From Candidatus Yanofskybacteria bacterium RIFCSPLOWO2_02_FULL_41_13 (lineage in GTDB: Bacteria > Patescibacteriota > Minisyncoccia > 2-02-FULL-40-12 > GWA2-44-9): a stretch of 64,000 bases of DNA. The stretch is from positions 14,808 through 78,807 of the forward strand of contig MGKQ01000001.1 of NCBI GenBank assembly GCA_001795735.1, in the 5' to 3' direction. The position numbers were made by a program, and so were the translations under genes. The notes beneath the pieces were generated by a model that did no database searches, was not told the origin of the DNA, and saw only the letters and a program-made list of their open reading frames with translations. This document shows, in pieces, positions 1 through 64,000 of this stretch; the first letter of the stretch is position 1, and the number at the start of each line of letters is the position of its first letter.

Positions 1-315
1 GAACATCTGGAAAATTTTTCTCCCGCCCTAGATCACATCCTAGCAAGCACCAAGAAGATAATCATAGCCAGAACTTATCTCGGCGAAAAACAAGAACGGG
101 ATATTATGCTTAAAGAGCATAGCCAATATCCCTACCCTATGAATCAGTATTCTTTTTTGGATATCTTTAGAACATTCGCCAAATATAACTTTGAAGCGAA
201 GATAGTTCGCGATCGTTACACTGATTCCCTGCCCTATTATGTCCCTTTTGAAACCGTACCCGGACAGGGTTTGGTTAGAACTCAATATGTAATAGTAGGC
301 CGTAAAACAAAATGA
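1..315 (+). CDS. 3' end of an upstream gene (5'-truncated by the window edge), hypothetical protein
   Basis: Frame 1 is open from position 1 to TGA at 313-315. That stop overlaps the ATG of the next gene (ATGA coupling). Confidence 0.4.
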   Translation, partial: EHLENFSPALDHILASTKKIIIARTYLGEKQERDIMLKEHSQYPYPMNQYSFLDIFRTFAKYNFEAKIVRDRYTDSLPYYVPFETVPGQGLVRTQYVIVGRKTK

Positions 316-992
316 GACAAAGTTATACCTCAGTAGTTTATAACGAAACGAGAACACCAATAACCAAATACCCGGACCAACTGGCCGGTTACCTTATTCA
401 TAGGTTCGAATTAAAACCGGGTAATCGTCTTTTGGAACTAGGCTGTGGACGGGGCGATTTTATATCCGCCTTTAAACGAGCCGGCCTTAGCTGCGCCGGG
501 GTAGACAGAGAACCAGCAAGTATCCCCGGAATAGAAGTAAGAAAATGTGATCTATCCAAAGATCCCCTGCCATTTGAAGACGAAAGCTTTGATGTAGTTT
601 ATCACAAATCAGTTATTGAACACCTTTATCAGCCAGACCACATAATGGACGAAACCTACCGGATTCTAAAGAAAGGAGGAAAGTTAATTTTCCTAACCCC
701 CGACTGGGAAAGGCAACTAAAAACTTTTTATGAAGATATCACTCACTGCCGGCCGTATAACGTCACGGCCGTAAAAGACACTCTTTCTATGTGGGAAATG
801 CAAGATATATTGGCCGAAAAGTTTTATCAATACCCGCTATTTTGGCGCTGGCCCATCTTGAAATTTTTAGGCCTATTATTTAACCCCTTTATTTCCGTTA
901 AGCTGGCTCGCTGGTATACTCGTAAAACAAACAAGAAATTTTTTCAATTCTCCATAGAAACAATGGTTCTCGGATACGGTAAAAAGAAGTGA
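312..992 (+). CDS. class I SAM-dependent methyltransferase
   Basis: Motif I LELGCGRGDF followed by acidic motif II. ATGA overlap with the upstream ORF. Confidence 0.75.
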   Translation: MRQSYTSVVYNETRTPITKYPDQLAGYLIHRFELKPGNRLLELGCGRGDFISAFKRAGLSCAGVDREPASIPGIEVRKCDLSKDPLPFEDESFDVVYHKSVIEHLYQPDHIMDETYRILKKGGKLIFLTPDWERQLKTFYEDITHCRPYNVTAVKDTLSMWEMQDILAEKFYQYPLFWRWPILKFLGLLFNPFISVKLARWYTRKTNKKFFQFSIETMVLGYGKKK

Positions 993-1113
993 TATCAATA
1001 TGCAAATGAATTATGCCAATATGCAAATGTAATGCGAATGCCGCGAATATGCAAATACTACATTAATGTAATTCGCAATTCGTAGATTCGCATTAGATTC
1101 GTAGATTTGCATC
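992..1113. promoter_or_regulatory. iteron-like direct repeats (3x AATATGCAAAT[G/A]) plus an inverted ATTTGCAT and TTCGTAGATTCGCAT direct repeats upstream of the 1114 gene
   Basis: Repeats read directly from the sequence at 998-1009, 1018-1029 and 1047-1058. ATTTGCAT at 1105-1112 abuts the ATG. Confidence 0.45.
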
Positions 1114-2715
1114 ATGACTATTAACTTTAATTCTCCGAACTACCTACCAAATTCAGAACAACGACTAGAGCATCTCCGTCGTATTATTAATGGACGCCCG
1201 GTAGCTATTTTGGTCGCCGGCCCTTCGATTAGTGAACTGGAAGAAAGGATCGGCGAACTCTCCCAAGCGGATATTTGTTACTTCGGAATGAACAATTTTT
1301 TTGTTCAGGAAAATCACATTTTAAAAAAAATAGGCAAACATTTTTCCTTATTGGTTGAAGCTGTCGACAACACCAATAAATCATTCTCTTTGGTCTTCAA
1401 TAGAATTATAGACTTTCTGGACAGAAGTGAGGACAATATGCTTGTTTCTTCCTTTACGAACTTTAAAATATCAGGCCCGAATTTTGATTTCCAAAAATTT
1501 TTGCATAAATATAACAATAAACTTCTTTCCCCCTGCGGCGTTTACGACAGGACCGTACCGAATGATGCCCAGCCCCTGCATCTTATACATGGTAACTCAC
1601 TCTCGTGGCTGATATATTTAGCTATTATCGGCAAAGCCTCCAAAATTAGCCTGTTTGGGGCAGACGGTTACACTAAAAACGAGAATACAAAAAAGACGTA
1701 TTACCGCTCTGAAGAATATGGCACAATGCCCCAGAAACAGCTTATGAATAATACCGATAAAGGCTTCAATCCGGTTGTTCCACTTTCATTACAAAATATT
1801 TATAAAACCTACGATCTTAAACCAATACCAATTTTAAATTGTTCTGAAGTTAGCTTTTTAACTCCCTTTCCGAAGGTCTCATATGATGACGCTTTTAATT
1901 TCCTGCTGGGCATAAAGCACACGCAAGAGATTTCTGATCTGCGTATTCCAACCGCCTCAATTATCATCCCAACCCCGGTAGATGATGAAAAACTAAAGAA
2001 TACTTTGAAAAATATTGCCGAACAGTCTTATTCAAATTACGAGACGGTTATCGTCCAAAAGAGTTCAGATTTCTTGGACGCCATGAAAAAAGCCATATCT
2101 TCGGCCAAGGGAAAATATGTTTTCTACTGTCCGCCGGACAACAGCTATCCGGATATTCATTGGATTAATTCTTGCTTAGAAATACTAGAGAACAGGCCCC
2201 AGATTTCCTTAGTCTGCGGTCTGCCTAAAAATACTGAACGGCCTTGGCCAAAGAAAAAGTTTATATATTACTGGCTCAAGAAAAAAAACTTCTTCCCGCC
2301 GAACATGCTCTGCGTCCGAAAGCAAGTTCTGGAAAAGTTTCTGCTCGAGACTGATATCGTCCGTGCAAATACAGAGTTTGAGAATTGGCTGAACTTTAGC
2401 TTATTTTTTAATATGAGCGGGTACTTGCCGGCTTTTATTCCGACAACTATCGCCAAGCATGATCGGACAAGTGAAGACGATGAATCACTAGATAATTACA
2501 GGCGCCAAGTTAATGACTATAAGAATCGTCTCATCTTTAAAAAGACATCGCATCATTTCAGAGACGGCGACGGCAATATCCTACCGGGCAAATTCTATCT
2601 AAGCATATTTTTACTTTATGGTTTAGCCGAGAAAGTTAACAGTAGGTTGCCTCTTTCCTTGCACACTTACTTAAATATTGCTAAAAATATAGTTAGAAAA
2701 TTTTATCAAAAATAA
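1114..2715 (+). CDS. two-domain protein: N-terminal DUF115/Maf-like (MptE-like) domain fused to a degenerate GT2-like glycosyltransferase domain
   Basis: N-terminal GRPVAILVAGPSISE...YFGMNNF pattern as in motility-accessory-factor/DUF115 proteins. C-terminal IIIPTPVDD...YETVIV resembles GT-A fold family 2. Confidence 0.5.
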   Translation: MTINFNSPNYLPNSEQRLEHLRRIINGRPVAILVAGPSISELEERIGELSQADICYFGMNNFFVQENHILKKIGKHFSLLVEAVDNTNKSFSLVFNRIIDFLDRSEDNMLVSSFTNFKISGPNFDFQKFLHKYNNKLLSPCGVYDRTVPNDAQPLHLIHGNSLSWLIYLAIIGKASKISLFGADGYTKNENTKKTYYRSEEYGTMPQKQLMNNTDKGFNPVVPLSLQNIYKTYDLKPIPILNCSEVSFLTPFPKVSYDDAFNFLLGIKHTQEISDLRIPTASIIIPTPVDDEKLKNTLKNIAEQSYSNYETVIVQKSSDFLDAMKKAISSAKGKYVFYCPPDNSYPDIHWINSCLEILENRPQISLVCGLPKNTERPWPKKKFIYYWLKKKNFFPPNMLCVRKQVLEKFLLETDIVRANTEFENWLNFSLFFNMSGYLPAFIPTTIAKHDRTSEDDESLDNYRRQVNDYKNRLIFKKTSHHFRDGDGNILPGKFYLSIFLLYGLAEKVNSRLPLSLHTYLNIAKNIVRKFYQK

Positions 2716-2780: not shown

Positions 2781-2809
2781 TTGACACCTTTTGACACCTT
2801 TTGATACTG
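2781..2809 (+). promoter_or_regulatory. promoter-like motif TTGACACC-TTTTGACACC-TTTTGATACT (duplicated -35-like TTGACA, -10-like GATACT)
   Basis: Perfect TTGACA at 2781 and 2791, and GATACT 16 nt after the first. The same composite motif recurs at 23616 and 24789. Confidence 0.5.
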
Positions 2810-2903: not shown

Positions 2904-3149
2904 ATGGCTGAAATTAATCCAAACGAAGTCTACACAACAAGCGAGGCTCAATCGCTTCTTAAGATCAGCAACAGCACTATAAAGCGCCTTCTAAAAAGAG
3001 GTGCCATCAAGGCTAATAAAATAGGAGGACAATATCGCGTCATGGGCAAAGAACTTTTGAGACTCCTGTCCCCCACCATAGAAAGACGGGCAGTAGAAAC
3101 CTATCAACGCTTAAAGAAAAAAGTTAAAAGAAAAATTAAAACCTGGTAA
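2904..3149 (+). CDS. small helix-turn-helix DNA-binding protein (excisionase/MerR-like HTH_17 family)
   Basis: SEAQSLLKISNSTIKRLLKRGAIKANKIGGQYRV is the characteristic excisionase-family HTH. Confidence 0.65.
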   Translation: MAEINPNEVYTTSEAQSLLKISNSTIKRLLKRGAIKANKIGGQYRVMGKELLRLLSPTIERRAVETYQRLKKKVKRKIKTW

Positions 3150-3191: not shown

Positions 3192-3479
3192 CCCTCACTC
3201 GAAATATGTATTATTTTTATGTGTTAAAATCAGAAAAAGACAACAATCTATACTTTGGGTATACGAATAATATAAAACAGAGATTTGAGGATCATAACAA
3301 GGGCAAGGTGAGCTCAACGAAGAACAGAAGACCGTTAACCTTGCCCTATTATGAAGCATACGAGTCAGAGAAAGATGCCAGGAACAGAGAACTACAAATT
3401 AAACGTAGAGCAAAAGCTTTTATTAGCTTAAAGCGAAGGATCATATATAGCATTATCTAATTTATTTCGAGTGAGGGGG
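3190..3479. repeat. perfect 16-bp inverted repeats (CCCCCTCACTCGAAAT / ATTTCGAGTGAGGGGG) precisely bracketing the GIY-YIG ORF
   Basis: IR-L at 3190-3205 abuts the ATG at 3206. IR-R at 3464-3479 starts 4 nt after the stop. Confidence 0.6.
3206..3460 (+). CDS. GIY-YIG domain small protein (UPF0213/YhbQ-like)
   Basis: YFYVLKS...LYFGYTNNIKQRFEDHN matches the GIY-YIG motif. About 84 aa. Confidence 0.75.
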   Translation: MYYFYVLKSEKDNNLYFGYTNNIKQRFEDHNKGKVSSTKNRRPLTLPYYEAYESEKDARNRELQIKRRAKAFISLKRRIIYSII

Positions 3480-3567: not shown

Positions 3568-4569
3568 ATGATCATAACCCGAACACCCTTTAGAATATCT
3601 TTCTTCGGCGGAGGAACTGACTATCCAACCTGGTACAAAGAAAACGGCGGATCGGTTCTGTCTGCCGCCATAAACAAGTATTGTTACATCACGTGCCGGT
3701 ATTTACCGCCATTTTTTAAATATAAACACAGAATCGTATACAGCCAGATTGAATCAGTAGATAAAATAGACCACATAGATCATCCGTCTGTCAGGGAGAC
3801 GATACGCTTTCTTAATATTGATAAAGGGCTGGAGATACACCACGACGGAGATTTGCCGGCTATGTCCGGGCTGGGATCTAGCTCTTCTTTTACTGTCGGC
3901 CTGATAAATGCTATAAGCGCATTAAATGGCACGCTAAAAACCAAGAGAGAGGTGGCCATGAATGCAATTCATATTGAGCAAAATATGATAAAGGAGAATG
4001 TCGGTTCTCAGGATCAGACAGCAGCGGCTTTTGGCGGACTAAACCGGATAGATTTTGGAGGGGCTAAGGAAATATCGATCAAGCCTCTAGTATTGAGCCC
4101 CAATCGGCTTGAGTCTCTTCAAGACCACCTAATGCTATTCTTTACCGGCTTATCACGAGATGCTTCAAAGATCGCAAAAGAACAGGTAACAAACATTAAA
4201 AATAGGGGCACTGAATTGAAATTGATGCACAGATTAGTTGATGAAGGAGAGGCAATTTTAGCAAACAGCAGAAAGGGATTAGATGAATTTGGAAAACTTC
4301 TGAATGAGGGGTGGAAAATAAAAAAATCATTGTCGTCAAAAATAACAAATCCCTATATTGATGACGTATATAAAGCCGGAATACGAGCCGGAGCGTTAGG
4401 GGGCAAACTGCTTGGTGCGGGAGGGGGAGGATTTATTCTATTCTTTGCAAAACCAGAGACGCATGAAAAAATAAAAAGCAAATTAAAAAATTTGCTTTTT
4501 GTCCCTTTCCGGTTTGACCATCTTGGCAGCCGGATTATATATACCGGGAATGACTTTGAAAAGTTCTAG
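3568..4569 (+). CDS. GHMP-family sugar kinase (HddA/heptose-7-phosphate-kinase-like or other sugar-1-kinase)
   Basis: GHMP motif GDLPAMSGLGSSSSFTVGL and C-terminal LLGAGGGGFILFFA. Confidence 0.75.
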   Translation: MIITRTPFRISFFGGGTDYPTWYKENGGSVLSAAINKYCYITCRYLPPFFKYKHRIVYSQIESVDKIDHIDHPSVRETIRFLNIDKGLEIHHDGDLPAMSGLGSSSSFTVGLINAISALNGTLKTKREVAMNAIHIEQNMIKENVGSQDQTAAAFGGLNRIDFGGAKEISIKPLVLSPNRLESLQDHLMLFFTGLSRDASKIAKEQVTNIKNRGTELKLMHRLVDEGEAILANSRKGLDEFGKLLNEGWKIKKSLSSKITNPYIDDVYKAGIRAGALGGKLLGAGGGGFILFFAKPETHEKIKSKLKNLLFVPFRFDHLGSRIIYTGNDFEKF

Positions 4570-5354
4570 AGACTCTTGCCCTGGCCTCCATCGATCACTA
4601 TTGAAGCGCCGTTTACTAGCCGTGCCTTGTCCGAGCAGATAAATGCTACGACATTCGCCACTTCTTCGGGTGAACCAAGTCGTCCCAAAGGAAAATTATC
4701 CATAACAAATTTATTGAACTCTTCTGGATTTTCTTTTTGTTTTTTATCCAGTCCCGTGTCAGGTATCATTATCTGTCCGGGAGCAACGCTGTTAAAAGTA
4801 ATTCCATCCCTCACTAAATCATGTTTAACAGCCAAGCTTTTCATGAAGCTTATCTGAGCACTCTTTGCCATACTATACCACGGTCTTCCCCCCGCTTCAC
4901 GCCCGCATATAGATGATATAGTAACTACCCTTCCCCATTTTTCCTTCCTCATAACAGGCAAGCATCGCATTGTAAACCCAATAGCTGCCGTAACATTTTT
5001 GTCATAAACTTCCTTCCACACATTTTCGGAAGTTTTTTCAACATCATCACTGCCCCAGCTTCCTCCTCCACCAACATTATTTATTAAAATATGTAACTTA
5101 CCCCACACACCAATTATCGTGCTCGTCACACGTTCAATATCCCGCGGTTTTGTGACATCCGCCACCAGACCAAGCCCAGTAACACCCTGACCGTTTATTT
5201 CCTCAACTACCTCAGCGACCCTCTCTACATTTCTTGCACAGATAGCTACATTACAGCCCTCTGCTGCCAGAGCAATAGCTATAGCTCGGCCTATCCCGTG
5301 ACTACCGCCGGTTACTAATGCATACTTACCACTTAATCCTAAGTTCATGTCCAC
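4566..5354 (-). CDS. short-chain dehydrogenase/reductase (classical SDR)
   Basis: TGGSHGIGRAIAIALAAEG Rossmann motif. Confidence 0.8.
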   Translation of the reverse strand: MDMNLGLSGKYALVTGGSHGIGRAIAIALAAEGCNVAICARNVERVAEVVEEINGQGVTGLGLVADVTKPRDIERVTSTIIGVWGKLHILINNVGGGGSWGSDDVEKTSENVWKEVYDKNVTAAIGFTMRCLPVMRKEKWGRVVTISSICGREAGGRPWYSMAKSAQISFMKSLAVKHDLVRDGITFNSVAPGQIMIPDTGLDKKQKENPEEFNKFVMDNFPLGRLGSPEEVANVVAFICSDKARLVNGASIVIDGGQGKSL

Positions 5355-5419
5355 CTCCTTAAATCGTAAGTTATCAAATAAACTGGCTACACAATAGAAT
5401 ACTATTCTGAGTTTGTCAA

Positions 5420-5447
5420 AAAAAATAGGCCGCTAGACCTATTTTAC
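5420..5447 (-). terminator. rho-independent terminator (minus strand) after the transketolase C-subunit
   Basis: AAATAGG / CCTATTT stem followed by a T-run on the minus strand. Confidence 0.45.
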
Positions 5448-5453
5448 TCCATA

Positions 5454-8481: not shown

Positions 8482-8484
8482 CAT

Positions 8485-52541: not shown

Positions 52542-52545
52542 TGGA

Positions 52546-53082: not shown

Positions 53083-53084
53083 AG

Positions 53085-58226: not shown

Positions 58227-59371
58227 ACAAAAGACAATATATTCTTGACTCTGCGCTCCCAGGTATAATTCTTAACATCCTCCATGGCTTTTTTGGAAAG
58301 TTGAAAGCCCAAGTCGGGTTCACTTAATATTCTGCCTATCCCCCGGTCTAAATCGCCAGGTTTATTCGGGTTAACTAAAATTGAGTTTTGATCATTAAGG
58401 ACTTCTGCGATCGATGGTAAATTGCTCGCGACAATCGGACAGCCTGACGCCATGTATTCAAAAAGCTTAACCGGCGAAGTATTTAGATAAACCTTATCTT
58501 TAGCCGAATTAGGCAATGTCAGAACATCGGCCGCTTTTAGATAAACCGGAATTTCTTTATGCGATTTGTGACCTAAGATCAAAACGTTTTTCAACCCCCT
58601 CGCTTTTTCCCTAAATTTCTTGATATCATAGTCCATCCCCCCGACAAAAATAAATAACACAGCATCTCTTTCTTGGAAATTGGAAACTAGAAATTGGAAA
58701 TTCCTTGCTGTTTCCAACAAGGAATAAACTCCCTTCCACTCGAATAAGTGACCTGTGTACATGACTATCTTTGAATCTTGGGACAGACTTAACTTCTTTC
58801 GTGCTTCCTCCTTTGATATCTGTATATCAAATTCGTTCATATCAACACCGTCATGAGCAACTAAAACGTTATCAGCCGAAAAGCCGATATTTAAAAACTT
58901 GCCCCTGAGGCTTTCCGAAATAGTAACTACTTTTAAATTCCTGGCCAGAAATCTTCTGTAAAAAAATATTCTGGCATCAGAAAAATTATGAGCCTCAAAA
59001 ACAATTTTTTTATTGAAGAAGCTTAGAAAATATAACGGCCACTCGTCGCGGGAATAAATAATATCGGCTTTTTGGACAACGGCGTAAAAAGAAAGAAGCA
59101 GGGCAGATATAACTCCCTTAATGTTGACTGCAATTTTATCAAGCCGACCGGAAAAATAAAAATCCGGTGCCCATATTCTTTTTATCTTAAAATTTGTTCT
59201 GACGGAATAGTATGAGCAGAGCTCATCTCTGATGTGATTGTCTCTGAAAGGATACAGTAGAGTCACCTCAAGACCCTGCAATGCAAAAGTTTCGCACATC
59301 TTAGCAATTTGGACACCATATGCTTTTTCTGTCGGCAACCTTAAATTAGCAATAAATAAAAGTTCTCTCAC
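58223..59371 (-). CDS. GT4 glycosyltransferase containing an in-frame heptamer repeat tract
   Basis: GT4 C-terminal EYMASGCPIVASN. Tract TTGGAAA-TTGGAAA-CTAGAAA-TTGGAAA at 58673-58700 encodes NFQFLVSNFQ. Confidence 0.75.
   Translation of the reverse strand: MRELLFIANLRLPTEKAYGVQIAKMCETFALQGLEVTLLYPFRDNHIRDELCSYYSVRTNFKIKRIWAPDFYFSGRLDKIAVNIKGVISALLLSFYAVVQKADIIYSRDEWPLYFLSFFNKKIVFEAHNFSDARIFFYRRFLARNLKVVTISESLRGKFLNIGFSADNVLVAHDGVDMNEFDIQISKEEARKKLSLSQDSKIVMYTGHLFEWKGVYSLLETARNFQFLVSNFQERDAVLFIFVGGMDYDIKKFREKARGLKNVLILGHKSHKEIPVYLKAADVLTLPNSAKDKVYLNTSPVKLFEYMASGCPIVASNLPSIAEVLNDQNSILVNPNKPGDLDRGIGRILSEPDLGFQLSKKAMEDVKNYTWERRVKNILSFV
58673..58702. repeat. imperfect heptanucleotide tandem repeat (TTGGAAA family, 4 units) inside the GT4 coding sequence
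   Basis: Seen in sequence. Confidence 0.8.
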
Positions 59372-60067
59372 TTATTTGTAGTTAGACCTGGAAAACTTCC
59401 TAACTAACGGCTTGACTAGCTCTTTAATAAACCGAGGCGGTTTTATGTATATTGAAGATGTGACCATATTTTTAAGAGACAAAGTATACAAACTTTCAAC
59501 TGCATCTTTCAAGGAGCTTCTCCTGCATTTTGTGGCAAAGAGTATGTTATCTATAAAGCCTGCGTTTCTAAATTTCCTGGATCTAAGTATGTATCTTGAG
59601 ACGACTTTCCTTACATCGGGATAATTAAACGTTGCATCATGATATGCAATAATTCCGCCTTCTCTCAAATAAGGCTCCCAAAGCAGAAAATCAGTTTCGG
59701 CCATTTTATAAGTATGATCGCCGTCAATCCAGAGAAAATCAACCGGTTTATTCCAGTTCTTGCTGGCCTCCTCTGATGTTGCAACCACAACCTCAACAAA
59801 CCCATCAACATTATGTTTATTCAGGTTGCTCTTAAGCTGACCTAGGGCCAAATCGTCAAAATATTGAGGATCTATAGCGTAAACCCTTCCTTTTTTATCT
59901 GAATTCTTCAGAGCATCGGCCAATACCACGGTTGAGCGGCCATAAAGACTGCCTATTTCTACTATCGTGCCGCCGTTTTTACGAACAACATCATACAAAA
60001 AATCAGCCTCTCTCTTAGAAAGAAAGCCTGGGATATCATTTAAAATACGGTCCAGATCTTTTGCCAT
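59372..60067 (-). CDS. class I SAM methyltransferase (CmcI/O-MT family-3-like)
   Basis: TIVEIGSLYGRST...WIDGDH pattern. Confidence 0.6.
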   Translation of the reverse strand: MAKDLDRILNDIPGFLSKREADFLYDVVRKNGGTIVEIGSLYGRSTVVLADALKNSDKKGRVYAIDPQYFDDLALGQLKSNLNKHNVDGFVEVVVATSEEASKNWNKPVDFLWIDGDHTYKMAETDFLLWEPYLREGGIIAYHDATFNYPDVRKVVSRYILRSRKFRNAGFIDNILFATKCRRSSLKDAVESLYTLSLKNMVTSSIYIKPPRFIKELVKPLVRKFSRSNYK

Positions 60068-60122
60068 ACTTTTTAGGTTATACCATTTCCGCTAAAAAAC
60101 AAACCGGCAGTATATAACAAAT

Positions 60123-60932
60123 TTATATTTTTTGAGCCACGACTAATATCTCAAAGCCAAAATGCTTTGAGATATATCTGTTTGATATAGAATCTAATAA
60201 TCTAACACTCACGTCTAGTATCTTTGCCGCAAACTTCATAAATTTAGGGTGATACCGAGAAAGACAATATGCAACGAAAAATCCGTCAGTAGCCAAAACT
60301 TTACAATTAGATGCCTTCGCAAGATCTTTTAATTCTTTGATCTTGAAAGATTTTTCAAAACCATATTCATAGTTTTTGCCCTTGATCATCTTAAATAATT
60401 TATGCGGGTTCCAGTAATTATTTACTGATACAATTAAAATTCCGTTTTTCCTCAACATTTGTGCCATAACTGCAAAAGCCCTTCTATAATCTTTTAGGTG
60501 CTGTATCGTTGCATCGGAAAAAACTATATCAAATTGTCCATCCTGAAATGGTAGATTAAAAACATCCGCTTGTTTAAATTCAACATTAGCTATATTTAAA
60601 TGAGCGGCAAGCCCTTTTGCCACTGCAAGTGACTCCTCCAGAATATCCGTTAGCACAAACTTGGATTCCGGAAAATCTCGAGCCAGTGCGATGCCATATC
60701 TCCCCGTACCTGTTCCGATATCAAGGAAACTAAACTTTTTAGAAGGTACATATTTCTTTATTATCGGATATCCTCTGACGAATAGCTGATTTTTAAGAAT
60801 TTTATCAACCTTGCTAAGACGAGCCTGTTTATCCCAGACATTGCTCCAGATAGTATTAATTGATTTTTGAGGTTTTGTATTTTCCATCTCAGTCATTAAT
60901 AAGAGAAGCATAGATCTCAATCTGCTTATCAA
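60123..60932 (-). CDS. class I SAM methyltransferase
   Basis: FLDIGTGTGRYGIALA...DIVFS. Confidence 0.7.
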   Translation of the reverse strand: MISRLRSMLLLLMTEMENTKPQKSINTIWSNVWDKQARLSKVDKILKNQLFVRGYPIIKKYVPSKKFSFLDIGTGTGRYGIALARDFPESKFVLTDILEESLAVAKGLAAHLNIANVEFKQADVFNLPFQDGQFDIVFSDATIQHLKDYRRAFAVMAQMLRKNGILIVSVNNYWNPHKLFKMIKGKNYEYGFEKSFKIKELKDLAKASNCKVLATDGFFVAYCLSRYHPKFMKFAAKILDVSVRLLDSISNRYISKHFGFEILVVAQKI

Positions 60933-62252
60933 TTAAAACTTTAGAATTATACTTTTCTTCCACCAATTTCCTGCCGTTTGCCCCTAATTCAGTTAAAAGC
61001 TCTGGATGGTCTATTAAGTATAATATCTTTTCGGCCAGCGCTCTAAAATCGCCCTCGTTTACAAGGAATCCGTTATAGCCATCCCCCACCTGATCAGGAA
61101 GACCGCTGTGTCTTGTAGTAATGACAGGCAACCCGGTAGCTAAAGCTTGTGAAATAATTACATTCATCCCGTTAGAAGTAGTGCAAGGCACCCACTACCA
61201 CCGTACGGTGCCATACATTACTAATTATTGTTTGATTGACATTCATGTTATTTAACCCGCTTAGAGTACTTCTAACGGGATTCATATTATTCAGTATCTC
61301 CATCCTTGGCCGTTTTTGACGGCTGAACAAAGAAGCTCATATTCTGGAAAAAATCTAATATCCGTTCTATTGCCATAAATCCTTTAAACTCCACAACGTC
61401 ATTCAAGCCCAATGTTCCCGCTAAAGAATGGATTTTTTCTCTCAACGGCCCGTCTCCAATCATATAGCACCTGAATTTTTTTGAGGTCTTTTCTTTGACA
61501 ATGGCCAGAGCGCGCAAGAGGTCGTCAAAACCTTTTTTCTCCACAAATCTGCCGACCGAAACAATATTTATTTCTTTATTCTCGGATATCGCCCTCTCCT
61601 TAAAATTATAGTTATCCAAGTTTATGCCAATGGGATGAACCAGTACTTTTTCTGAAGAAAATCCGTGTCCTACTACCCTTCGCTTCATGTCCTCAGACAT
61701 AACGAAGAACAAAGCTGATTCTTCTATTAATCCCCGATAGATAGCAATCCCTTTTTCTTTTATTCTTTTACTGACATCCTGGCCGTAAAGTGAAGTGATA
61801 AATTTTTCCTTAATACCCAAAACTTTTTTTATCATGACAAAGTTAGACCCGACATTGCCAAAGTGACAATGATACAAATCGTATTTTTTACCGAAAAAAG
61901 GCTTTAAATCCCAGAACAAAACTTTAAAATTAGATGCAATTTTAAAAATAGATGCCGGCCTATAGAGTAACAGTCTGACTAACCGAGGTCCAGCCATAAT
62001 AATTCTCAGTATTTTGTTAGCCGGAACGCTAAGATACATTGTCTTTTTGTCTAACCCGTATTGAAAATACCTCTTGGATATATGGTCCTTGTTCGCCCCG
62101 CCTCGATTAAAGGCGTAAATCTCAACCCCGACCCCCCGGTCGATCAGATCACAAGCCTGATCAATAATAAAAGTTTCGGATATTTCCGGAAAACTGCCTA
62201 CAATAAAGGCGACTCTTAAGTTTTGCTTTTTATTTATATTAACTGAACTCAT
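60889..62252 (-). pseudogene. GT4 glycosyltransferase split into an N-terminal fragment (61287..62252) and a C-terminal fragment (60889..61167) by insertion of the roughly 125-bp repeat element
   Basis: N-fragment ends ...FVQPSKTAKDGDTE-stop. C-fragment resumes GMNVIISQALATGLPVITT. Together they rebuild the conserved GT4 E-G-x-G...EAMA-G-PVI core. Confidence 0.55.
61162..61292. mobile_element. roughly 125-bp terminal-inverted-repeat element, copy B (MITE-like), inserted in a GT4 gene
   Basis: Aligns end to end with copy A (TCATCCCGTTAGAAGTAGTGCAAGGCACCCACTACCACC ... TTTAACCCGCTTAGAGTACTTCTAACGGGATTCAT). Contains the 12-bp perfect palindrome CACCGTACGGTG. Confidence 0.65.
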
Positions 62253-63424
62253 AGACTGTGAAAAAAATTATAAAACTTGGTGGACACGACCTGATAGCCA
62301 TAAGCATTGTGAACAAACTCCCGGCCTGCCCTGCCCATAGATATTCTTTTTTGTTCATCGTTAGCTAATAACGCCATGGCCTCTTTCAATTCCTTGTGGT
62401 CATCATAGGATTTAATAAGAATGCCAGTTTTGCCGTCTAATACAATTTCAGTTATCGAACCAGAAGTAGTGCTGATAACCGGCAATTCCATAGACGACGC
62501 TTCCTGAATGGAATACGGCAATTGGTCTTCCCATCCGCCATAGGGAATACTCGGATACAAAAAAATATCAGAACTATTGTAGAGCTCCCAGACTCCGTCC
62601 CGCTCAAGCCACGGTACTCTAATAATAAAATCTTTTAGTTTCAGCTCTTCAATCATCGACTCTATCATCAGGCCATATTCCCCCTCACCAAGACCGGCGA
62701 GAATTAAACGGACGTTTGGTATGGTTTCTGAAATTTCCTTAAAAGCCCTGATAATCAGATGGACCCCCTTGCGGTGAGCAACCATTCCGGCAAATCCAAA
62801 AACTACGTAATCTTTCAGGTCTATACCCTTAAAAGATTTTTTTGAATAATCTCGCTTAAAGAAATCTGTATCAAGACCCATCGCCGGTATAACAACCATC
62901 GGTTTATCCGTAATAGATTTCATCACTTTCTCTGCCCGGATACTTCCGCACACAACTCCGTCACATAATGCCATATTCAAGTTAATAACAAACTTTTGGA
63001 TAGCGCCCCTCAATCCTTTAAATTTACTCTCATAAGAAACATTCTCCCAAGTAAAAACGATGAACTTAGCTCCAAACAGTTTGGCAAAAATACACTCATA
63101 TAAAGTAGTCAGAAGATTCGGCTCACTGATACTAAGAATTATATCCGGCTTCTGCTCACGAAGAATAAATGGAAACATCGGCATCCAGCCCTTTAAGATT
63201 CCGCCGATAAGAGGATAATTTGAGTGGTGAAAAAAAGCCTTGGTAGTATGGACATTTTTGCCGGGAGTAGGTTTGAATACATACCTTCCGCCCTTTATCG
63301 GCCACCTCTCAGGTACAAGAAAATGAATATCATCTGTACGGGGATAACCGCTGAATGTTTTCATATAACTCTCATTCGCAAATGTATAGCCGGATATTAA
63401 AATTTTTAGATTACCGGGTGTCAT
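62249..63424 (-). CDS. GT4 glycosyltransferase
   Basis: C-terminal EDQLPYSIQEASSMELPVISTTSGSITE (E..EA...PVI.T). Confidence 0.75.
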   Translation of the reverse strand: MTPGNLKILISGYTFANESYMKTFSGYPRTDDIHFLVPERWPIKGGRYVFKPTPGKNVHTTKAFFHHSNYPLIGGILKGWMPMFPFILREQKPDIILSISEPNLLTTLYECIFAKLFGAKFIVFTWENVSYESKFKGLRGAIQKFVINLNMALCDGVVCGSIRAEKVMKSITDKPMVVIPAMGLDTDFFKRDYSKKSFKGIDLKDYVVFGFAGMVAHRKGVHLIIRAFKEISETIPNVRLILAGLGEGEYGLMIESMIEELKLKDFIIRVPWLERDGVWELYNSSDIFLYPSIPYGGWEDQLPYSIQEASSMELPVISTTSGSITEIVLDGKTGILIKSYDDHKELKEAMALLANDEQKRISMGRAGREFVHNAYGYQVVSTKFYNFFHSL

Positions 63425-64000
63425 TGTCTGATTATATTGCTTATTTTATTTATCAAATTATCAAGATTATGGTTATGGATGACATAATCCCTTAAATCTG
63501 CCGTATTCTGTTTTTTGCCGGAAATCTCAATTTTTTCGGCTAACTGAGTTGGGTCATTCTCGTTAAATATTAGCTCTTTCGGTAAAAAAGAGCGAGATGA
63601 ATCGTTTGAACTTAGGACTTTTATCCCGCAAGCCATCGCCTCAAGAAGCACCTTGTCCACGCTTCCGGTTTTTGAAAGGTGAATAAAAATGTCGTGTGAT
63701 TGGTAGTATACCGGCAAATCTTTGTGATTCACTTTTCCAACAAAATTAAATTGATCTTGTAACTTGTAACTTGTAACTTGTAACTTTATTTTTTTTTCAT
63801 ATTCTTTGTCGCTCTCCAGCGCCGCTTCTCCTGCTATAGTTACGGAAAAATCAACCCCCTTACTCTTTAGTAACCTTGCCGCATCGATCAATACTTCATA
63901 ATTCTTCACCAGTGCAATTCTCCCCACGCTCAATATCTTAAATTGGAAATTGGAAATTGGAAATTGGAAATTGGGCTTGAAAAGCCCGGTGTCTATTCCA
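63421..64000 (-). CDS. GT4 glycosyltransferase, 5' end beyond the window; contains two heptamer repeat tracts in frame
   Basis: LLEAMACGIKVLSS C-domain motif. The frame stays open upstream through (TTGGAAA)n to the window edge. Confidence 0.65.
   Translation of the reverse strand, partial: GIDTGLFKPNFQFPISNFQFKILSVGRIALVKNYEVLIDAARLLKSKGVDFSVTIAGEAALESDKEYEKKIKLQVTSYKLQDQFNFVGKVNHKDLPVYYQSHDIFIHLSKTGSVDKVLLEAMACGIKVLSSNDSSRSFLPKELIFNENDPTQLAEKIEISGKKQNTADLRDYVIHNHNLDNLINKISNIIRQ
63756..63783. repeat. heptanucleotide tandem repeat (CTTGTAA)x4 inside the GT4 coding sequence (encodes KLQVTSYKLQ)
   Basis: Seen in sequence. Confidence 0.85.
63941..63975. repeat. heptanucleotide tandem repeat (AATTGGA / TTGGAAA) x4.7 inside the same GT4 coding sequence (encodes PNFQFPISNFQF)
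   Basis: Seen in sequence. Followed by a GGGCTTGAAAAGCCC hairpin. Confidence 0.85.

What the first reader, a model, noticed from the sequence alone, without database searches (positions are those of the whole stretch)
1..64000. Whole-window view: an unusually large, enzymatically exotic surface-glycosylation island with population-variation hallmarks
In the 64 kb I recognised none of the usual flanking or export genes (no Wzx, Wzy or ABC exporter, and no acceptor protein gene). Combined with at least seven glycosyltransferases, the Pse-like module, rare radical chemistry, phase-variable tracts, a MITE-disrupted GT and a possible dedicated regulon motif, the island looks like a fast-evolving contingency locus for a highly decorated glycan or glycoprotein in a poorly studied lineage. 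Compact ATGA-coupled operons, TTG/GTG starts with strong SD and small GIY-YIG ORFs hint at a CPR-like or other uncultivated low-GC bacterium. The island is therefore longer than this window.
Basis: inference. Interest (0 to 1): 0.6.

Follow-up and report, generated by a model that had tools for sequence, protein, structure and literature searches.

The report
Giant surface-sugar gene island in CPR bacterium
This 64 kb window is the middle of a gene island of at least 80 kb, in a tiny-genome, uncultivated groundwater bacterium (Candidatus Yanofskybacteria), that is devoted to building and attaching unusual cell-surface sugars; it is a rich but recognisable variant of known bacterial glycan loci, not a new kind of system.

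Summary
The window comes from a Candidatus Yanofskybacteria (CPR) population. At least three independent assemblies are colinear and 99.8-100% identical, so it is not chimeric. About 50 of 61 genes make or transfer sugars:
- 11 glycosyltransferases, one of them split by a 119-nt MITE.
- PseB, PseC and PseI, which score above the curated cut-offs of their NCBIfam equivalog models.
- A WbuXYZ amidotransferase set.
- Two Maf-like (DUF115) transferases.
- Five radical-SAM enzymes.
- All three known classes of ThDP sugar-branching enzyme.

The island continues at least 10 kb to the left and about 6 kb to the right.

- An ArnC/NaxD/ArnT-like module for glycosylation outside the membrane was overlooked (GT2 + YdjC + GT-C fold).
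- The G/C homopolymer tracts are no more frequent than chance.
- Strong Shine-Dalgarno sites are not general.

The real contingency-like signal is a set of perfect heptanucleotide repeats inside the GT4 gene array. Three assemblies carry identical copy numbers, so switching is unproven.

Sister Yanofskybacteria carry a syntenic island with a swapped nonulosonic-acid module. The radical-SAM/kinase/ThDP cassette occurs in many phyla and appears uncharacterised. Verdict: a new variant of a known kind, of moderate interest.

The parts
312..992 (+). SAM-dependent methyltransferase. It is the last gene of an ulosonic-acid module whose other genes lie left of the window: NeuB-like 291 aa, PseF-like cytidylyltransferase, HAD phosphatase and two radical-SAM genes.
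   Evidence: Pfam Methyltransf_11/23. Left-flank genes in L001. NCBIfam NeuB 209 bits and PseF 149 bits, both below cut-off.
1114..2715 (+). Two-domain putative transferase. The N-terminal 270 aa is a divergent DUF115/Maf-like domain; the C-terminal part is a weak GT2/TIGR04440-like domain.
   Evidence: hhalign of the N-terminal domain family (A4) against the short DUF115 family (A1): probability 96.3%, E 1.7e-9, 238 columns. Pfam GT2 24.5 bits. TIGR04440 34.8 bits, below cut-off. The family is rare: 425 representatives at E<=1e-3 out of 1.84 billion.
2781..2807 (+). Conserved promoter/operator-like box made of 10-bp direct repeats (TTGACACCTT x2.4). Related boxes lie at 23616-23645 and 24789-24818.
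   Evidence: The same box lies upstream of the HTH_17 gene in a different population (L013 21112-21128). In the alignment only the box is conserved.
2904..3149 (+). HTH_17 (excisionase/MerR-type) DNA-binding protein of 81 aa; candidate regulator of the boxes.
   Evidence: Pfam HTH_17, 43 bits. An orthologous HTH_17 sits in the same neighbourhood in L013.
3206..3460 (+). Small GIY-YIG ORF (84 aa) bracketed by perfect inverted repeats of at least 16 nt.
   Evidence: Pfam GIY-YIG, 59.6 bits. Left arm at 3189-3205; its exact reverse complement lies within 80 nt downstream of the ORF.
3568..10567 (.). First half of the widely conserved sugar cassette: HddA-like GHMP kinase (3568-4569 +), SDR (4566-5354 -), split transketolase (5454-7221 -), methyltransferase (7339-8481 +), and PDH-E1-type ThDP alpha/beta pair (8569-10567 +).
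   Evidence: Pfam. NCBIfam HddA 151 bits, E1 alpha 250 bits, E1 beta 280 bits, all below cut-off. These genes co-occur with the radical-SAM gene in 38-44 of the 82 loci compared.
10675..11705 (+). GIY-YIG ORF (94 aa) followed by an endonuclease/exonuclease/phosphatase-family protein.
   Evidence: Pfam. The EEP gene is 81% conserved in L052.
11787..13927 (+). DegT-type sugar aminotransferase, then an SDR epimerase/dehydratase.
   Evidence: Pfam. NCBIfam matches below threshold.
13992..16067 (-). B12-binding radical-SAM enzyme of 691 aa, KedN5-like; putative sugar C-methyltransferase.
   Evidence: Pfam Radical_SAM + B12-binding. NCBIfam KedN5 254 bits against a cut-off of 700. 100% identical to an NCBI Yanofskybacteria protein.
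16167..18883 (.). RmlC-like 3,5-epimerase (16167-16700 -), Fcl-like SDR (16737-17738 +) and aldo-keto reductase (17915-18883 +).
   Evidence: Pfam. NCBIfam RmlC 127 bits, Fcl 134 bits.
18968..21133 (+). Paralogue (45% identity) of the 691-aa radical-SAM enzyme.
   Evidence: alignment A3, inverted repeats I1-I3.
21180..22478 (-). Radical-SAM enzyme of 432 aa (weak PhpK/BchE/AprD4-like matches).
22616..24752 (+). Fcl-like SDR, then a TIGR04440-family glycosyltransferase.
   Evidence: TIGR04440 165.5 bits against a cut-off of 70.
24844..26939 (+). PseB (UDP-GlcNAc 4,6-dehydratase, inverting) and PseC aminotransferase.
   Evidence: NCBIfam equivalog models passed: 423.1 bits (cut-off 407.75) and 447.9 bits (cut-off 423.5).
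26936..29388 (+). Methyltransferase, then a fusion of a divergent NeuB-like synthase domain with a CMP-sugar cytidylyltransferase domain (613 aa).
   Evidence: Pfam NeuB + CTP_transf_3. NCBIfam matches below threshold. The same fusion occurs in L015.
29385..31915 (+). WbuX/WbuY/WbuZ-type N-acetyl-sugar amidotransferase set (for acetamidino formation).
   Evidence: WbuX 382.8 bits against a cut-off of 203. GATase and His_biosynth domains.
31924..34344 (+). DUF218 protein, SDR and ATP-grasp ligase; putative tailoring enzymes of the nonulosonic acid.
34322..35398 (+). PseI, pseudaminic acid synthase. The G7 run at 34356-34362 lies in its 5' end.
   Evidence: NCBIfam PseI 465.2 bits against a cut-off of 340. 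G7 run; no length change in L007-L012.
35451..36362 (+). Radical-SAM/SPASM enzyme.
   Evidence: Pfam, NCBIfam.
36366..37259 (+). Short DUF115/MptE-like protein (297 aa); putative CMP-nonulosonate transferase.
   Evidence: Pfam MptE-like 32.6 bits, just below the cut-off of 34.6. Most listed homologues carry PF01973. AF2 model pLDDT 88.9. Foldseek top PDB hit is 5MU5, a Maf glycosyltransferase, at E 5.5e-5; MptE HPPK and sialyltransferases follow.
37281..40138 (.). Two methyltransferases and a GT4 glycosyltransferase.
40135..43977 (-). DUF4956 membrane protein, VTC-domain protein, and an 808-aa CotH-kinase/beta-helix protein. The DUF4956 and the next gene sit beside the GT4 in a relative too.
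   Evidence: Pfam, TM segments, same GT4/DUF4956 neighbourhood in L015. No PADLOC hit for CotH.
44136..46862 (-). B12-radical-SAM enzyme (524 aa) and a GT1/GT4-type glycosyltransferase.
46872..47183 (-). GIY-YIG ORF (103 aa).
47164..50760 (-). Module for glycosylation outside the membrane: YdjC-family deacetylase (47164-48033), polyprenyl-phosphate GT2 with two C-terminal TM segments (48088-49083), and a GT-C membrane transferase with about 11 hydrophobic segments (49108-50760).
   Evidence: Pfam YdjC 157 bits and GT2 116 bits. NCBIfam PgfS 269 bits and ArnC 165 bits, below cut-off. TM count. 18 and 12 of 30 aligned family members hit PMT and PMT_2; NCBI names some homologues GT39. AF2 model pLDDT 85.7. 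Foldseek top hits are ArnT 5F15/5EZM at E 2e-8, then STT3, Pmt4, Pmt1/2 and PglB.
48060..48089 (.). Perfect heptanucleotide array (TTGAAAA x4.3) between the GT2 and ydjC genes.
50750..51514 (-). Methyltransferase. The longest-ORF start lies inside the MITE copy, so the true start is probably downstream.
51491..51604 (.). Intergenic MITE copy, about 85% identical to the one inside the GT4 gene.
51591..53001 (-). 316-aa protein with no family match, then a NUDIX hydrolase.
53085..57298 (.). Yersiniose-like branched-sugar module: RfbH-like PLP/PMP 3-dehydrase (53085-54305 -), acetolactate-synthase/YerE-like ThDP enzyme (54438-56294 +) and SDR reductase (56294-57298 +).
   Evidence: NCBIfam RfbH 384 bits against a cut-off of 423. 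Acetolactate-synthase model 432 bits against 538. Pfam. Role of YerE: PMC12247030.
57357..58226 (+). Methyltransferase containing the C8 run at 57899-57906.
   Evidence: The run is identical in L004-L006.
58223..60932 (-). GT4 carrying an imperfect heptamer array (58673-58702), then two methyltransferases.
60889..62252 (-). GT4 gene split into 321-aa and 100-aa ORFs by a MITE at 61171-61289 with terminal inverted repeats CCCGTTAGAAGTA.
   Evidence: The same split is present in the NCBI, ENA and JGI assemblies.
62249..63424 (-). GT4-type glycosyltransferase.
63421..64000 (-). C-terminal part of a 343-aa GT4 gene that runs beyond the window. It carries two perfect in-ORF heptamer arrays: 63756-63786 (x4.4) and 63940-63974 (x5).

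Best explanation
The window is the core of a chromosomal island of at least 80 kb in a Candidatus Yanofskybacteria (CPR) bacterium. The island makes several rare activated sugars and attaches them to cell-surface acceptors.

Shown by homology that passes curated cut-offs or by fold match:
- A pseudaminic-acid-type branch (PseB, PseC, PseI) with a WbuXYZ amidotransferase set for an acetamidino group.
- Two Maf-like DUF115 transferases, of the kind that use CMP-nonulosonates.
- A module that works on a lipid carrier. A GT2 would load a sugar on polyprenyl phosphate, a YdjC deacetylase would unmask its amine as NaxD does, and an ArnT-like GT-C enzyme would transfer it on the outer face of the membrane.

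Inferred from sub-threshold homology and gene context:
- A heptose- or 6-deoxyhexose-type pathway (HddA-like kinase, RmlC-like epimerase, Fcl-like reductases). Its product would be C-methylated by two KedN5-like B12 radical-SAM enzymes and C-branched by an E1 alpha/beta ThDP enzyme and a split-transketolase ThDP enzyme.
- A yersiniose-like branch (RfbH-like, YerE-like, reductase).
- Decoration by about nine SAM methyltransferases.
- Assembly by an array of soluble GT4 enzymes.

I found no initiating phosphoglycosyltransferase, flippase or polymerase in the 84 kb I could see. I therefore infer that most sugars are added stepwise in the cytoplasm to a protein or a primed envelope polymer, and that the GT-C module adds an amino sugar outside.

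Diversification between populations occurs by swapping whole modules. Heptanucleotide repeats inside the GT4 genes may add on/off switching, but that is unproven.
For: Origin and integrity.
Gene content.
Pse enzymes and WbuX above cut-offs.
Maf-like fold of 36366-37259.
Second DUF115 domain in 1114-2715.
GT-C fold of 49108-50760.
GT2 of the ArnC/PgfS type and YdjC. NaxD precedent: PMC11279074.
ThDP sugar branching by YerE-like, E1-type and transketolase enzymes: PMC12247030.
Extension of the island and the extra GT4 genes.
Ser/Thr/Pro-rich protein just beyond the GT array.
Syntenic islands with different nonulosonic-acid modules in other Yanofskybacteria.
No match to known anti-phage defence models for the ten proteins tested.
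Against: No acceptor, initiating transferase, flippase or polymerase was identified, so the end product and its carrier are unknown.
PseH, PseG and a PseF equivalog were not found.
Most non-Pse enzymes score below curated cut-offs (KedN5 254 against 700, HddA 151 against 600, RfbH 384 against 423).
E1-type and transketolase-type sugar branching is so far known mainly from antibiotic pathways.
There are no expression or chemical data.
Only 10 kb on each side of the window could be read.
Confidence: 0.7

Rival explanations
1. The island is a contingency locus in the strict sense. Slippage of the heptanucleotide arrays in the GT4 genes, and of the array upstream of ydjC, would switch individual transferases on and off, giving a combinatorially variable surface glycan within one population. 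This would add to the best explanation rather than replace it.
For: - There are three perfect arrays of at least 4 copies in the window, against none in 600 shuffles.
- Two more perfect arrays lie in the 9.4 kb beyond the right end, plus three imperfect ones.
- All 18 perfect repeats counted across about 270 kb of related loci have unit 7. Four of those counts are the window's two right-end arrays seen again in an overlapping locus.
- In this organism all but one lie inside GT4 reading frames, where gain or loss of one unit shifts the frame.
- Orthologous GT4 genes in other populations carry heptamer arrays at other positions.
- Precedent: a heptanucleotide repeat controls Neisseria pglE (PMC7157529).
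Against: - Three independent assemblies (NCBI, ENA, JGI) are 100% identical over 19-21 kb that include every array.
- All arrays are in frame and all orthologues are intact.
- Copy numbers of 4-5 are low for efficient slippage.
- Consensus assemblies cannot reveal minority variants.
Confidence: 0.3
2. It is a biosynthetic gene cluster for a glycosylated secondary metabolite, such as an aminoglycoside-like or other sugar-rich antibiotic, rather than a surface glycan.
For: - The B12 radical-SAM enzymes are nearest to KedN5, an enediyne sugar methyltransferase.
- E1-type and transketolase-type sugar branching is known mainly from antibiotics.
- No initiating transferase, Wzx, Wzy or ABC exporter is present in the window.
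Against: - No PKS, NRPS, cyclase or other scaffold enzyme appears in the 84 kb examined.
- There are 16 glycosyltransferases counting the right flank.
- Nonulosonic-acid synthases with Maf-like transferases and an ArnT-like GT-C enzyme are hallmarks of envelope or protein glycosylation.
- The cassette is widespread in proteobacterial chromosomes alongside sugar-nucleotide genes.
Confidence: 0.07
3. It is a flagellin glycosylation island of the Campylobacter type.
For: Pse pathway genes, a WbuX/PseA-like amidotransferase, DUF115/Maf-like proteins, many methyltransferases and repeat tracts.
Against: - No flagellin or flagellar gene appears in the 84 kb examined.
- The DUF115 proteins lack the full Maf architecture: 297 aa against 632 aa for 5MU5.
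- Parcubacteria are generally regarded as non-flagellated (background knowledge, not tested here).
Confidence: 0.05
4. The window is a chimeric misassembly or a patchwork of several organisms.
For: Gene orientation changes often and assemblies break near repeats, for example at window positions 46684 and 60842 as derived from the contig ranges.
Against: - GC content stays at 0.36-0.44 throughout.
- ENA scaffold_458 is colinear with window positions -14765 to 60842, and NCBI contig MGJR01000027.1 with 46684 onward.
- JGI and other ENA contigs match at 99.8-100%.
- A sister species shows the same modules on one 173-kb contig.
Confidence: 0.02

Closest known systems
Campylobacter jejuni flagellin O-glycosylation island (Pse/Leg pathways, PseA, Maf family)
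   Same: PseB/PseC/PseI chemistry, an amidotransferase for acetamidino derivatives, DUF115/Maf-type transferases, many tailoring methyltransferases, and repeat tracts in paralogous genes.
   Different: No flagellin or flagellar genes nearby. The DUF115 proteins are half-length or fused to a GT2-like domain. The repeats are heptanucleotide arrays in GT4 genes, not poly-G in maf genes. The island also holds 5-7 radical-SAM enzymes, three ThDP branching systems and a GT-C module. The host is a CPR bacterium.
Tannerella forsythia general protein O-glycosylation with a terminal Pse/Leg derivative (PMC5420450)
   Same: The title and abstract (seen) report a strain-specific nonulosonic-acid derivative transferase acting on a protein-bound oligosaccharide, outside any flagellar context. 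That is the same logic proposed here, with module swapping between strains or species.
   Different: The acceptor here is unknown. I did not read the paper's text or compare the sequences directly.
ArnC/ArnD/ArnT, and Francisella/Acinetobacter NaxD-dependent galactosamine addition to lipid A
   Same: A polyprenyl-phosphate GT2, a deacetylase acting on the lipid-linked sugar (YdjC family, as NaxD is), and a GT-C transferase whose model is closest to ArnT.
   Different: CPR bacteria are not known to make lipid A (background knowledge), so the acceptor must be another envelope molecule or a protein. No small flippase subunit was seen.
Yersiniose and related YerE-type branched sugars of O-antigens; E1-type and transketolase-type branching in antibiotic sugars (review PMC12247030)
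   Same: An RfbH-like dehydrase, a YerE-like ThDP enzyme and a reductase lie side by side. An E1 alpha/beta pair and a split transketolase lie beside deoxysugar enzymes.
   Different: All three classes occur together in one surface-glycan island. Scores are below curated cut-offs. No CDP-glucose-forming enzyme was seen next to the YerE-like gene.
Neisseria pgl protein-glycosylation locus with phase-variable glycosyltransferases (pglE heptanucleotide repeat; PMC7157529)
   Same: Heptanucleotide repeats lie inside a glycosyltransferase reading frame in a protein or surface glycosylation context.
   Different: Copy numbers here are low (4-5). Several arrays occur per gene. No length polymorphism has been observed.
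Cobalamin-dependent radical-SAM sugar C-methyltransferases (KedN5 family)
   Same: B12-binding plus radical-SAM architecture, and the best NCBIfam match.
   Different: The score is 254 bits against a cut-off of 700. The proteins are about 700 aa with a long conserved C-terminal extension. They belong to a large clade embedded in a kinase/ThDP/reductase cassette found in many phyla.

Membership tests
Pseudaminic acid pathway (PseB, C, H, G, I, F) | PseB, inverting UDP-GlcNAc 4,6-dehydratase | tested here: met
   TIGR03589, 423.1 bits against a cut-off of 407.75
Pseudaminic acid pathway (PseB, C, H, G, I, F) | PseC aminotransferase | tested here: met
   TIGR03588, 447.9 bits against 423.5
Pseudaminic acid pathway (PseB, C, H, G, I, F) | PseI synthase | tested here: met
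   TIGR03586, 465.2 bits against 340.25
Pseudaminic acid pathway (PseB, C, H, G, I, F) | PseH N-acetyltransferase and PseG UDP-sugar hydrolase | tested here: not met
   No GNAT or GT28-type protein was found in the window by Pfam. A relative has a NUDIX-GNAT fusion at the equivalent place. Here an ATP-grasp ligase, a DUF218 protein and a remote NUDIX gene are the only candidates.
Pseudaminic acid pathway (PseB, C, H, G, I, F) | PseF CMP-Pse synthetase | tested here: inconclusive
   A CTP_transf_3 domain is fused to a NeuB-like domain. The left-flank gene scores 149 bits on the PseF model against a cut-off of 205.7.
Maf (motility accessory factor) nonulosonate transferases | DUF115/MptE-like catalytic domain | tested here: met
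   Pfam E 8e-8, at 32.6 bits just below the cut-off of 34.6. Most listed homologues carry PF01973. The fold is closest to Maf 5MU5, then to sialyltransferases.
Maf (motility accessory factor) nonulosonate transferases | Full Maf architecture (about 600 aa) and a flagellin substrate | tested here: not met
   The protein is 297 aa, against 632 aa for 5MU5, with TM-score 0.24 normalised to the target. No flagellin gene lies within 84 kb.
Wzx/Wzy-dependent or ABC-dependent polysaccharide locus | Initiating phosphoglycosyltransferase, Wzx flippase, Wzy polymerase or ABC exporter in the locus | tested here: not met
   No such Pfam hit in the window or the two 10-kb flanks. Only two polytopic proteins are present. 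A sister species has an ABC_membrane+ABC_tran gene beside its island.
ArnC/ArnD(NaxD)/ArnT-type lipid-carrier glycosylation | Polyprenyl-phosphate GT2 with C-terminal TM helices | tested here: met
   GT2 116 bits. Two TM segments. PgfS 269 bits and ArnC 165 bits, both below equivalog cut-offs.
ArnC/ArnD(NaxD)/ArnT-type lipid-carrier glycosylation | GT-C fold transferase | tested here: met
   AF2 model pLDDT 85.7. Foldseek hits ArnT 5F15 at E 2e-8 and 5EZM at TM 0.56.
ArnC/ArnD(NaxD)/ArnT-type lipid-carrier glycosylation | Deacetylase or deformylase acting on the lipid-linked sugar | tested here: inconclusive
   A YdjC domain (157 bits) is encoded next to the GT2, the same family as NaxD. Its substrate was not tested.
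ArnC/ArnD(NaxD)/ArnT-type lipid-carrier glycosylation | Lipid A as acceptor | not testable with these tools
   Requires chemistry. CPR bacteria are not known to make lipid A (background knowledge).
SSR contingency (phase-variable) locus | Repeat tract, with unit not a multiple of 3, inside an ORF or promoter, and enriched over chance | tested here: met
   About 400 arrays per Mb in the GT4 array against about 2 per Mb in the control loci.
SSR contingency (phase-variable) locus | Repeat-number polymorphism among cells or strains that changes the reading frame | tested here: not met
   Three assemblies are identical and the orthologues are all in frame. Read-level data are not available here.
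MITE | Short non-coding element with terminal inverted repeats, present in several copies | tested here: met
   An insert of about 119 nt with 13-nt perfect TIR cores, in two copies 85% identical. Exact excision restores the GT4 ORF.
MITE | Target-site duplication | tested here: inconclusive
   ATTCAT flanks both ends at 61.2 kb, and ATCCAT/ATTCAT flank the copy at 51.5 kb. Removing the element plus one duplicated copy does not restore the frame, whereas removing exactly 119 nt does.
Yersiniose-type branched 3,6-dideoxyhexose pathway | E1 (RfbH-type) dehydrase, YerE-type ThDP enzyme and reductase | tested here: inconclusive
   RfbH 384 bits against 423; acetolactate-synthase-type ThDP enzyme 432 bits against 538; adjacent SDR.
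Yersiniose-type branched 3,6-dideoxyhexose pathway | CDP-glucose synthesis and 4,6-dehydratase in the locus | tested here: not met
   No glucose-1-phosphate cytidylyltransferase was found in the window.
Candidate Phyla Radiation lineage | Sequence identity to a taxonomically assigned genome | tested here: met
   100% identity of two proteins to NCBI Candidatus Yanofskybacteria MAG entries. Contig MGJR01000027.1 of GCA_001794375.1.

The most novel reading that the evidence does not exclude
Two readings remain open.
(a) The heptanucleotide arrays make the GT4 array a true slipped-strand switchboard. To my knowledge that would be the first contingency locus described in a CPR bacterium, and it would let an episymbiont with a very small genome vary its surface glycan against hosts or phages.
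(b) The conserved cassette makes a so far undescribed class of C-methylated, C-branched higher sugars. It comprises a 700-aa B12 radical-SAM enzyme, an HddA-like kinase, an E1 alpha/beta pair or split transketolase, an aldo-keto reductase, an RmlC-like epimerase and Fcl-like reductases. It is present in at least 544 species-representative genomes from CPR bacteria to Bradyrhizobium and Methanoperedens, and the sugars would be for cell surfaces.
Probability: 0.3. Interest if true: 0.75.

Novelty: new variant of a known kind. Interest (0 to 1): 0.55.

Why it matters
CPR bacteria are viewed as metabolically minimal episymbionts. A recent study of Saccharibacteria pili calls their glycosylation processes "unexplored" (PMC11623550).

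This organism commits at least 80 kb to exotic surface sugars, including cobalamin-dependent radical chemistry. If the genome is about 1 Mb, as is typical for the group (background knowledge), that is several per cent of it. Such an investment argues that the glycan coat is central to the organism's lifestyle, for example in host attachment or in evasion of phage or host.

The locus also brings together all three known ThDP sugar-branching enzyme classes in a cell-surface setting. Two of those classes are so far linked mainly to antibiotics.

Finally, it points to a widely distributed cassette that appears uncharacterised and could be studied in cultivated Bradyrhizobium or Reyranella.

Tried and rejected
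1. Exact 41-mer searches of genome contigs and metagenome contigs found nothing. This population is not in those two collections.
2. An exact-protein look-up of the 360-aa NeuB ORF failed. Public gene calls start the gene at a later ATG, giving 358 aa, so this is not variation in the G7 tract.
3. No tRNA and no Rfam family was found, so there is no tRNA-linked integration signal in the window.
4. Homopolymer phase variation is rejected as an enriched feature.
5. The apparent split genes in assembly L012 (methyltransferase and CotH) are scaffold gaps of N, not mutations.
6. BLASTP between the N-terminus of 1114-2715 and the DUF115 protein was uninformative. Only the profile-profile comparison showed the relationship.
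7. Sequence searches of PDB with the GT-C protein or its family profile gave nothing. A fold search was needed.
8. The PDB profile hit of the 1114-2715 N-domain to a Leptospira LRR protein is a low-complexity or repeat artefact.
9. A reading as an anti-phage defence system found no support: there were no PADLOC hits for the eight GT4 genes tested, CotH or the 23S_rRNA_IVP protein.
10. The MITE was not found in any of the loci fetched from other populations.
11. I could not walk beyond 10 kb from either end of the window, because look-ups are restricted to window proteins and earlier hits.

Full report
ORIGIN AND INTEGRITY

The 691-aa radical-SAM protein encoded at 13992-16067 is 100% identical to an NCBI protein of [quoted passage not shown]. 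The membrane protein at 49108-50760 is 100% identical to another protein of the same MAG.

Exact-protein look-ups found the window's genes on many independently assembled contigs from ENA, JGI and NCBI (GCA_001794375.1, contig MGJR01000027.1). BLAST of twelve such loci against the window gave 99.8-100% identity with no real indels. The apparent split genes in one assembly are runs of N.

From the reported contig ranges:
- One ENA scaffold is colinear with window positions -14765 to 60842.
- The NCBI contig is colinear from 46684 onward.

GC content is even, at 0.36-0.44. The window is therefore a real stretch of CPR chromosome.

WHAT IS ENCODED

Greedy ORF calling gives 61 ORFs of at least 90 aa, with almost no non-coding space. 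Pfam and NCBIfam assign about 50 of them to sugar chemistry. I group them into modules.

1. Ulosonic-acid module straddling the left end.
   - The flank holds a NeuB-like synthase, a PseF-like cytidylyltransferase, a HAD phosphatase, two radical-SAM enzymes and further redox and aminotransferase genes.
   - Inside the window are two methyltransferases and the 533-aa protein at 1114-2715.
   - The N-terminal domain of that protein is a divergent DUF115/Maf-like domain (hhalign probability 96.3%, E 1.7e-9), fused to a weak GT2-like domain.

2. Deoxy-/heptose-type cassette, 3568-24752.
   - HddA-like GHMP kinase, SDRs and a split transketolase.
   - A PDH-E1-type alpha/beta pair.
   - A DegT aminotransferase, an RmlC-like epimerase, two Fcl-like reductases and an aldo-keto reductase.
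   - Two paralogous KedN5-like B12 radical-SAM enzymes of about 700 aa, and a third radical-SAM enzyme.
   - A TIGR04440 glycosyltransferase, which scores above its cut-off.

3. Pseudaminic-acid-type module, 24844-37259.
   - PseB, PseC and PseI all pass NCBIfam equivalog cut-offs, and WbuX passes its cut-off.
   - WbuY/Z-like subunits and a fusion of a NeuB-like domain with a cytidylyltransferase domain.
   - A DUF218 protein, an SDR, an ATP-grasp ligase and a radical-SAM/SPASM enzyme.
   - A 297-aa DUF115 protein.

4. Methyltransferases and GT4 enzymes.

5. A DUF4956/VTC/CotH-beta-helix trio.

6. A B12 radical-SAM enzyme, a GT, and the YdjC/GT2/GT-C module.

7. An RfbH-like/YerE-like/reductase module.

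8. A GT4 array with methyltransferases that runs out of the window.

TWO KEY PROTEINS TESTED BY STRUCTURE

- The short DUF115 protein. The model was built from a 40-sequence alignment and has pLDDT 88.9. Its best PDB match is the Maf glycosyltransferase of Magnetospirillum (5MU5, E 5.5e-5). MptE HPPK, a Pasteurella sialyltransferase and human sialyltransferases follow. This supports a role as a CMP-nonulosonate transferase. The protein is only half the length of Maf, so I do not file it as a Maf protein.

- The 550-aa protein at 49108-50760. It has about 11 hydrophobic segments and no Pfam hit of its own. However, 18 and 12 of the 30 aligned family members hit PMT and PMT_2. Its model (pLDDT 85.7) matches ArnT best (5F15, E 2e-8), followed by STT3, Pmt4, Pmt1/2 and PglB.

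The GT-C protein sits with two partners: the adjacent PgfS/ArnC-like GT2, which has C-terminal TM helices, and a YdjC deacetylase, the family of NaxD. Together they form an ArnC/NaxD/ArnT-like route that glycosylates an acceptor on the outer face of the membrane.

WHAT IS ABSENT

No initiating phosphoglycosyltransferase, Wzx, Wzy or ABC exporter was found in the window or the two 10-kb flanks. No flagellin gene was found either.

About 8 kb past the right end lies a 537-aa protein. It follows five more GT4 genes, a 23S_rRNA_IVP protein, a further GT4, an FGase-family gene and an IS200-type fragment. Its visible C-terminal 389 residues are rich in Ser, Thr, Gly and Pro, for example ...SSGGGGGGSSYTPASTPVSTLTLTPEPSPSPTPVP.... 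It is a plausible O-glycosylation acceptor, but nothing more than a candidate.

MECHANISM

I infer a factory for several activated rare sugars. Soluble GT4, GT2 and DUF115 transferases would add them stepwise to a protein or a primed envelope polymer. A separate lipid-carrier route would add an amino sugar outside the membrane.

- Shown: the enzyme families named above.
- Inferred: the identity of the sugars other than the Pse-type core, the order of the steps, and the acceptor.

A review of ThDP enzymes states that YerE-like enzymes branch LPS sugars, whereas E1-type and transketolase-type branching is known mainly from antibiotic pathways (PMC12247030). Finding all three classes in one surface-glycan island is therefore unusual.

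The secondary-metabolite alternative is weak:
- No scaffold genes are present.
- The locus carries 16 glycosyltransferases.
- It carries nonulosonate machinery and a GT-C enzyme.

COMPARATIVE PICTURE

Close relatives of the radical-SAM enzyme (65-77% identity) lie in rearranged neighbourhoods.
- One shares the NeuB-fusion/WbuXYZ/DUF218/PseI-like/SPASM/DUF115-like/GT4/DUF4956 order. It adds GNAT acetyltransferases and a carbamoyltransferase.
- The other has MBOAT and PhyH genes.

A second Yanofskybacteria species (GCA_001794695.1) carries a syntenic island of at least 55 kb on one contig.
- It has the same kinase/ThDP/radical-SAM core and the same GT2/YdjC/GT-C module.
- Its nonulosonic-acid module is of the NeuC/NeuB type, with a PAPS synthase and a sulfotransferase.
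- An ABC exporter lies next to the island.

This pattern of a conserved core with swapped modules resembles serotype diversification in O-antigen and capsule loci.

A scan of one genome per species found at least 544 loci encoding the 700-aa radical-SAM family. They occur in CPR groups, Elusimicrobia, Acidobacteria, Nitrospirae, many Alpha- and Betaproteobacteria (including the isolate Bradyrhizobium iriomotense SZCCT0346) and Methanoperedens.

tblastn of all window proteins against 82 loci showed recurrent neighbours within 10 kb. The 82 loci were the 80 best from that scan plus the two sister-species loci.

| Neighbour | Loci (of 82) |
|---|---|
| Fcl-like reductases | 60-63 |
| Aldo-keto reductase | 53 |
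| GHMP kinase | 44 |
| E1 alpha/beta pair | 38-39 |
| Aminotransferase | about 30 |
| RmlC-like epimerase | 23 |
| Split transketolase | 11 |

The "rare radical chemistry" is therefore part of a widespread cassette. NCBIfam has no equivalog model for it, and my literature searches found no description of it.

VARIATION HALLMARKS

- MITE. The MITE-split GT4 is real and is fixed in all assemblies examined.
- Homopolymers. These are at chance level.
- Heptanucleotide arrays. Tandem Repeats Finder and my own scan found perfect arrays of 4-5 copies in three settings:
  - Two inside the last GT4 gene (63756-63786 and 63940-63974).
  - One between the GT2 and ydjC genes (48060-48089).
  - Two more perfect arrays, plus three imperfect ones, in the GT4 genes just beyond the window.

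  None lies in the left flank, and none appeared in 600 shuffles of the window. Every perfect repeat with a unit of 2-12 nt in about 270 kb of related loci has unit 7. Orthologous GT4 genes in other populations carry heptamer arrays at other positions.

  This design mirrors the heptanucleotide switch of Neisseria pglE (PMC7157529). However, three independent assemblies show identical copy numbers, so switching is unproven.
- SNPs. Variation within the population is limited to a few SNPs, including a linked cluster of five within 88 bp at 31690-31777.

REGULATION

A 27-nt box with 10-bp direct repeats precedes three genes: the HTH_17 gene (2781-2807), the TIGR04440 glycosyltransferase and the pseB operon. 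The same box precedes the HTH_17 gene of a different population, where the surrounding sequence does not align.

The box overlaps sigma-70-like -35 and extended -10 elements. It could be a shared strong promoter, an operator of the HTH_17 protein, or both.

With three sites in 64 kb, "regulon" is too strong a word. The conservation does argue for function.

VERDICT

This is a very large, enzyme-rich surface-glycosylation island of a CPR bacterium. It is a new variant of a known kind, not a new kind of system.

Its main value lies in three leads:
- The heptamer arrays.
- The orphan radical-SAM/ThDP cassette.
- The question of what CPR cells display on their surface.

Noticed in passing
window 63756-63786, 63940-63974, 58673-58702, 48060-48089; L004 5870-5899, 5932-5967, 6337-6367, 7752-7808, 8373-8398: Heptanucleotide tandem arrays of 4-5 copies, several of them perfect, are concentrated in the GT4 gene array. 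Every perfect repeat counted in about 270 kb of related loci has unit 7 (18 of 18; four of these are the window's two right-end arrays counted again in an overlapping locus). Copy numbers are identical in three assemblies.
   Followed up: partly
window 3568-24752; loci L031-L110: A cassette recurs around the radical-SAM gene in at least 544 species-representative genomes of many phyla, including Bradyrhizobium iriomotense SZCCT0346, Reyranella, Tagaea, Saccharibacteria and Methanoperedens. It comprises a 700-aa B12 radical-SAM enzyme, an HddA-like kinase, an E1 alpha/beta pair or split transketolase, an aldo-keto reductase, Fcl-like reductases and an RmlC-like epimerase. Its product appears unknown.
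   Followed up: partly
window 2781-2807, 23616-23645, 24789-24818; L013 21112-21128: A box of 10-bp direct repeats (TTGACAC...TTTTGATAC) precedes an HTH_17 gene in two different populations, and also precedes two sugar operons in the window.
   Followed up: partly
window 2849-2888: A near-perfect 40-nt palindrome (ACCTGTACGGCCCGCT...AGCGGGCCGTACAGGT) lies between the box and the HTH_17 start codon. It may be a leader hairpin or a terminator of the upstream gene.
   Followed up: no
window 3189-3205 and the 80 nt downstream of 3460: The 84-aa GIY-YIG ORF is bracketed by perfect inverted repeats of at least 16 nt. The other two GIY-YIG ORFs (10675 and 46872) are not. It may be a small mobile or selfish unit.
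   Followed up: partly
L004 1-1168 (about 8 kb beyond the right end of the window): The C-terminal 389 aa of a 537-aa protein rich in Ser, Thr, Gly and Pro, with a PEPSPSPTPVP-type linker. It is a candidate glycosylation acceptor. Its N-terminus could not be fetched.
   Followed up: partly
window 40135-43977; L015 18795-19956: The DUF4956/VTC/CotH-kinase-beta-helix trio sits directly after a GT4 gene. In a relative, a DUF4956 gene and the next gene (cut off at the locus end and not annotated) occupy the same place. The trio's role in a glycan island is unclear, and CotH has no PADLOC match.
   Followed up: partly
window 31690-31777: Five linked SNPs within 88 bp of the HisF-like (WbuZ) gene are shared by five assemblies. 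Elsewhere SNPs are isolated. The pattern looks like a short recombination tract between co-existing strains.
   Followed up: no
L004 6333-6457 and 8835-8959; partial inverted copies at 4638-4730 and 5056-5127: A 125-bp intergenic sequence is repeated (93.6% identity) between GT4 paralogues beyond the window. It may be a shared promoter or a substrate for recombination.
   Followed up: no
L029 14795-22154 (GCA_001794695.1): In the sister species the nonulosonic-acid module is of the NeuC/NeuB/GFO type. It is preceded by a 905-aa PAPS-synthase fusion and a sulfotransferase, which suggests a sulfated sialic-acid-like sugar.
   Followed up: no
L015 6644-7399: A NUDIX-GNAT fusion protein sits where PseG and PseH would be expected in a relative's Pse-like module. 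It may be a non-orthologous replacement. The window itself lacks recognisable PseG and PseH.
   Followed up: no
window 50750-51514 and 60889-61191: Both longest ORFs begin at a GTG inside a MITE copy (upstream sequence GGTGGTAGTGG). The element may therefore supply a start site for the downstream fragment, or the start calls may be artefacts.
   Followed up: no
L012 (windows 37571-37585 and 42665-42729): The split methyltransferase and CotH genes in this public scaffold are caused by runs of N at scaffold gaps, not by mutations.
   Followed up: yes
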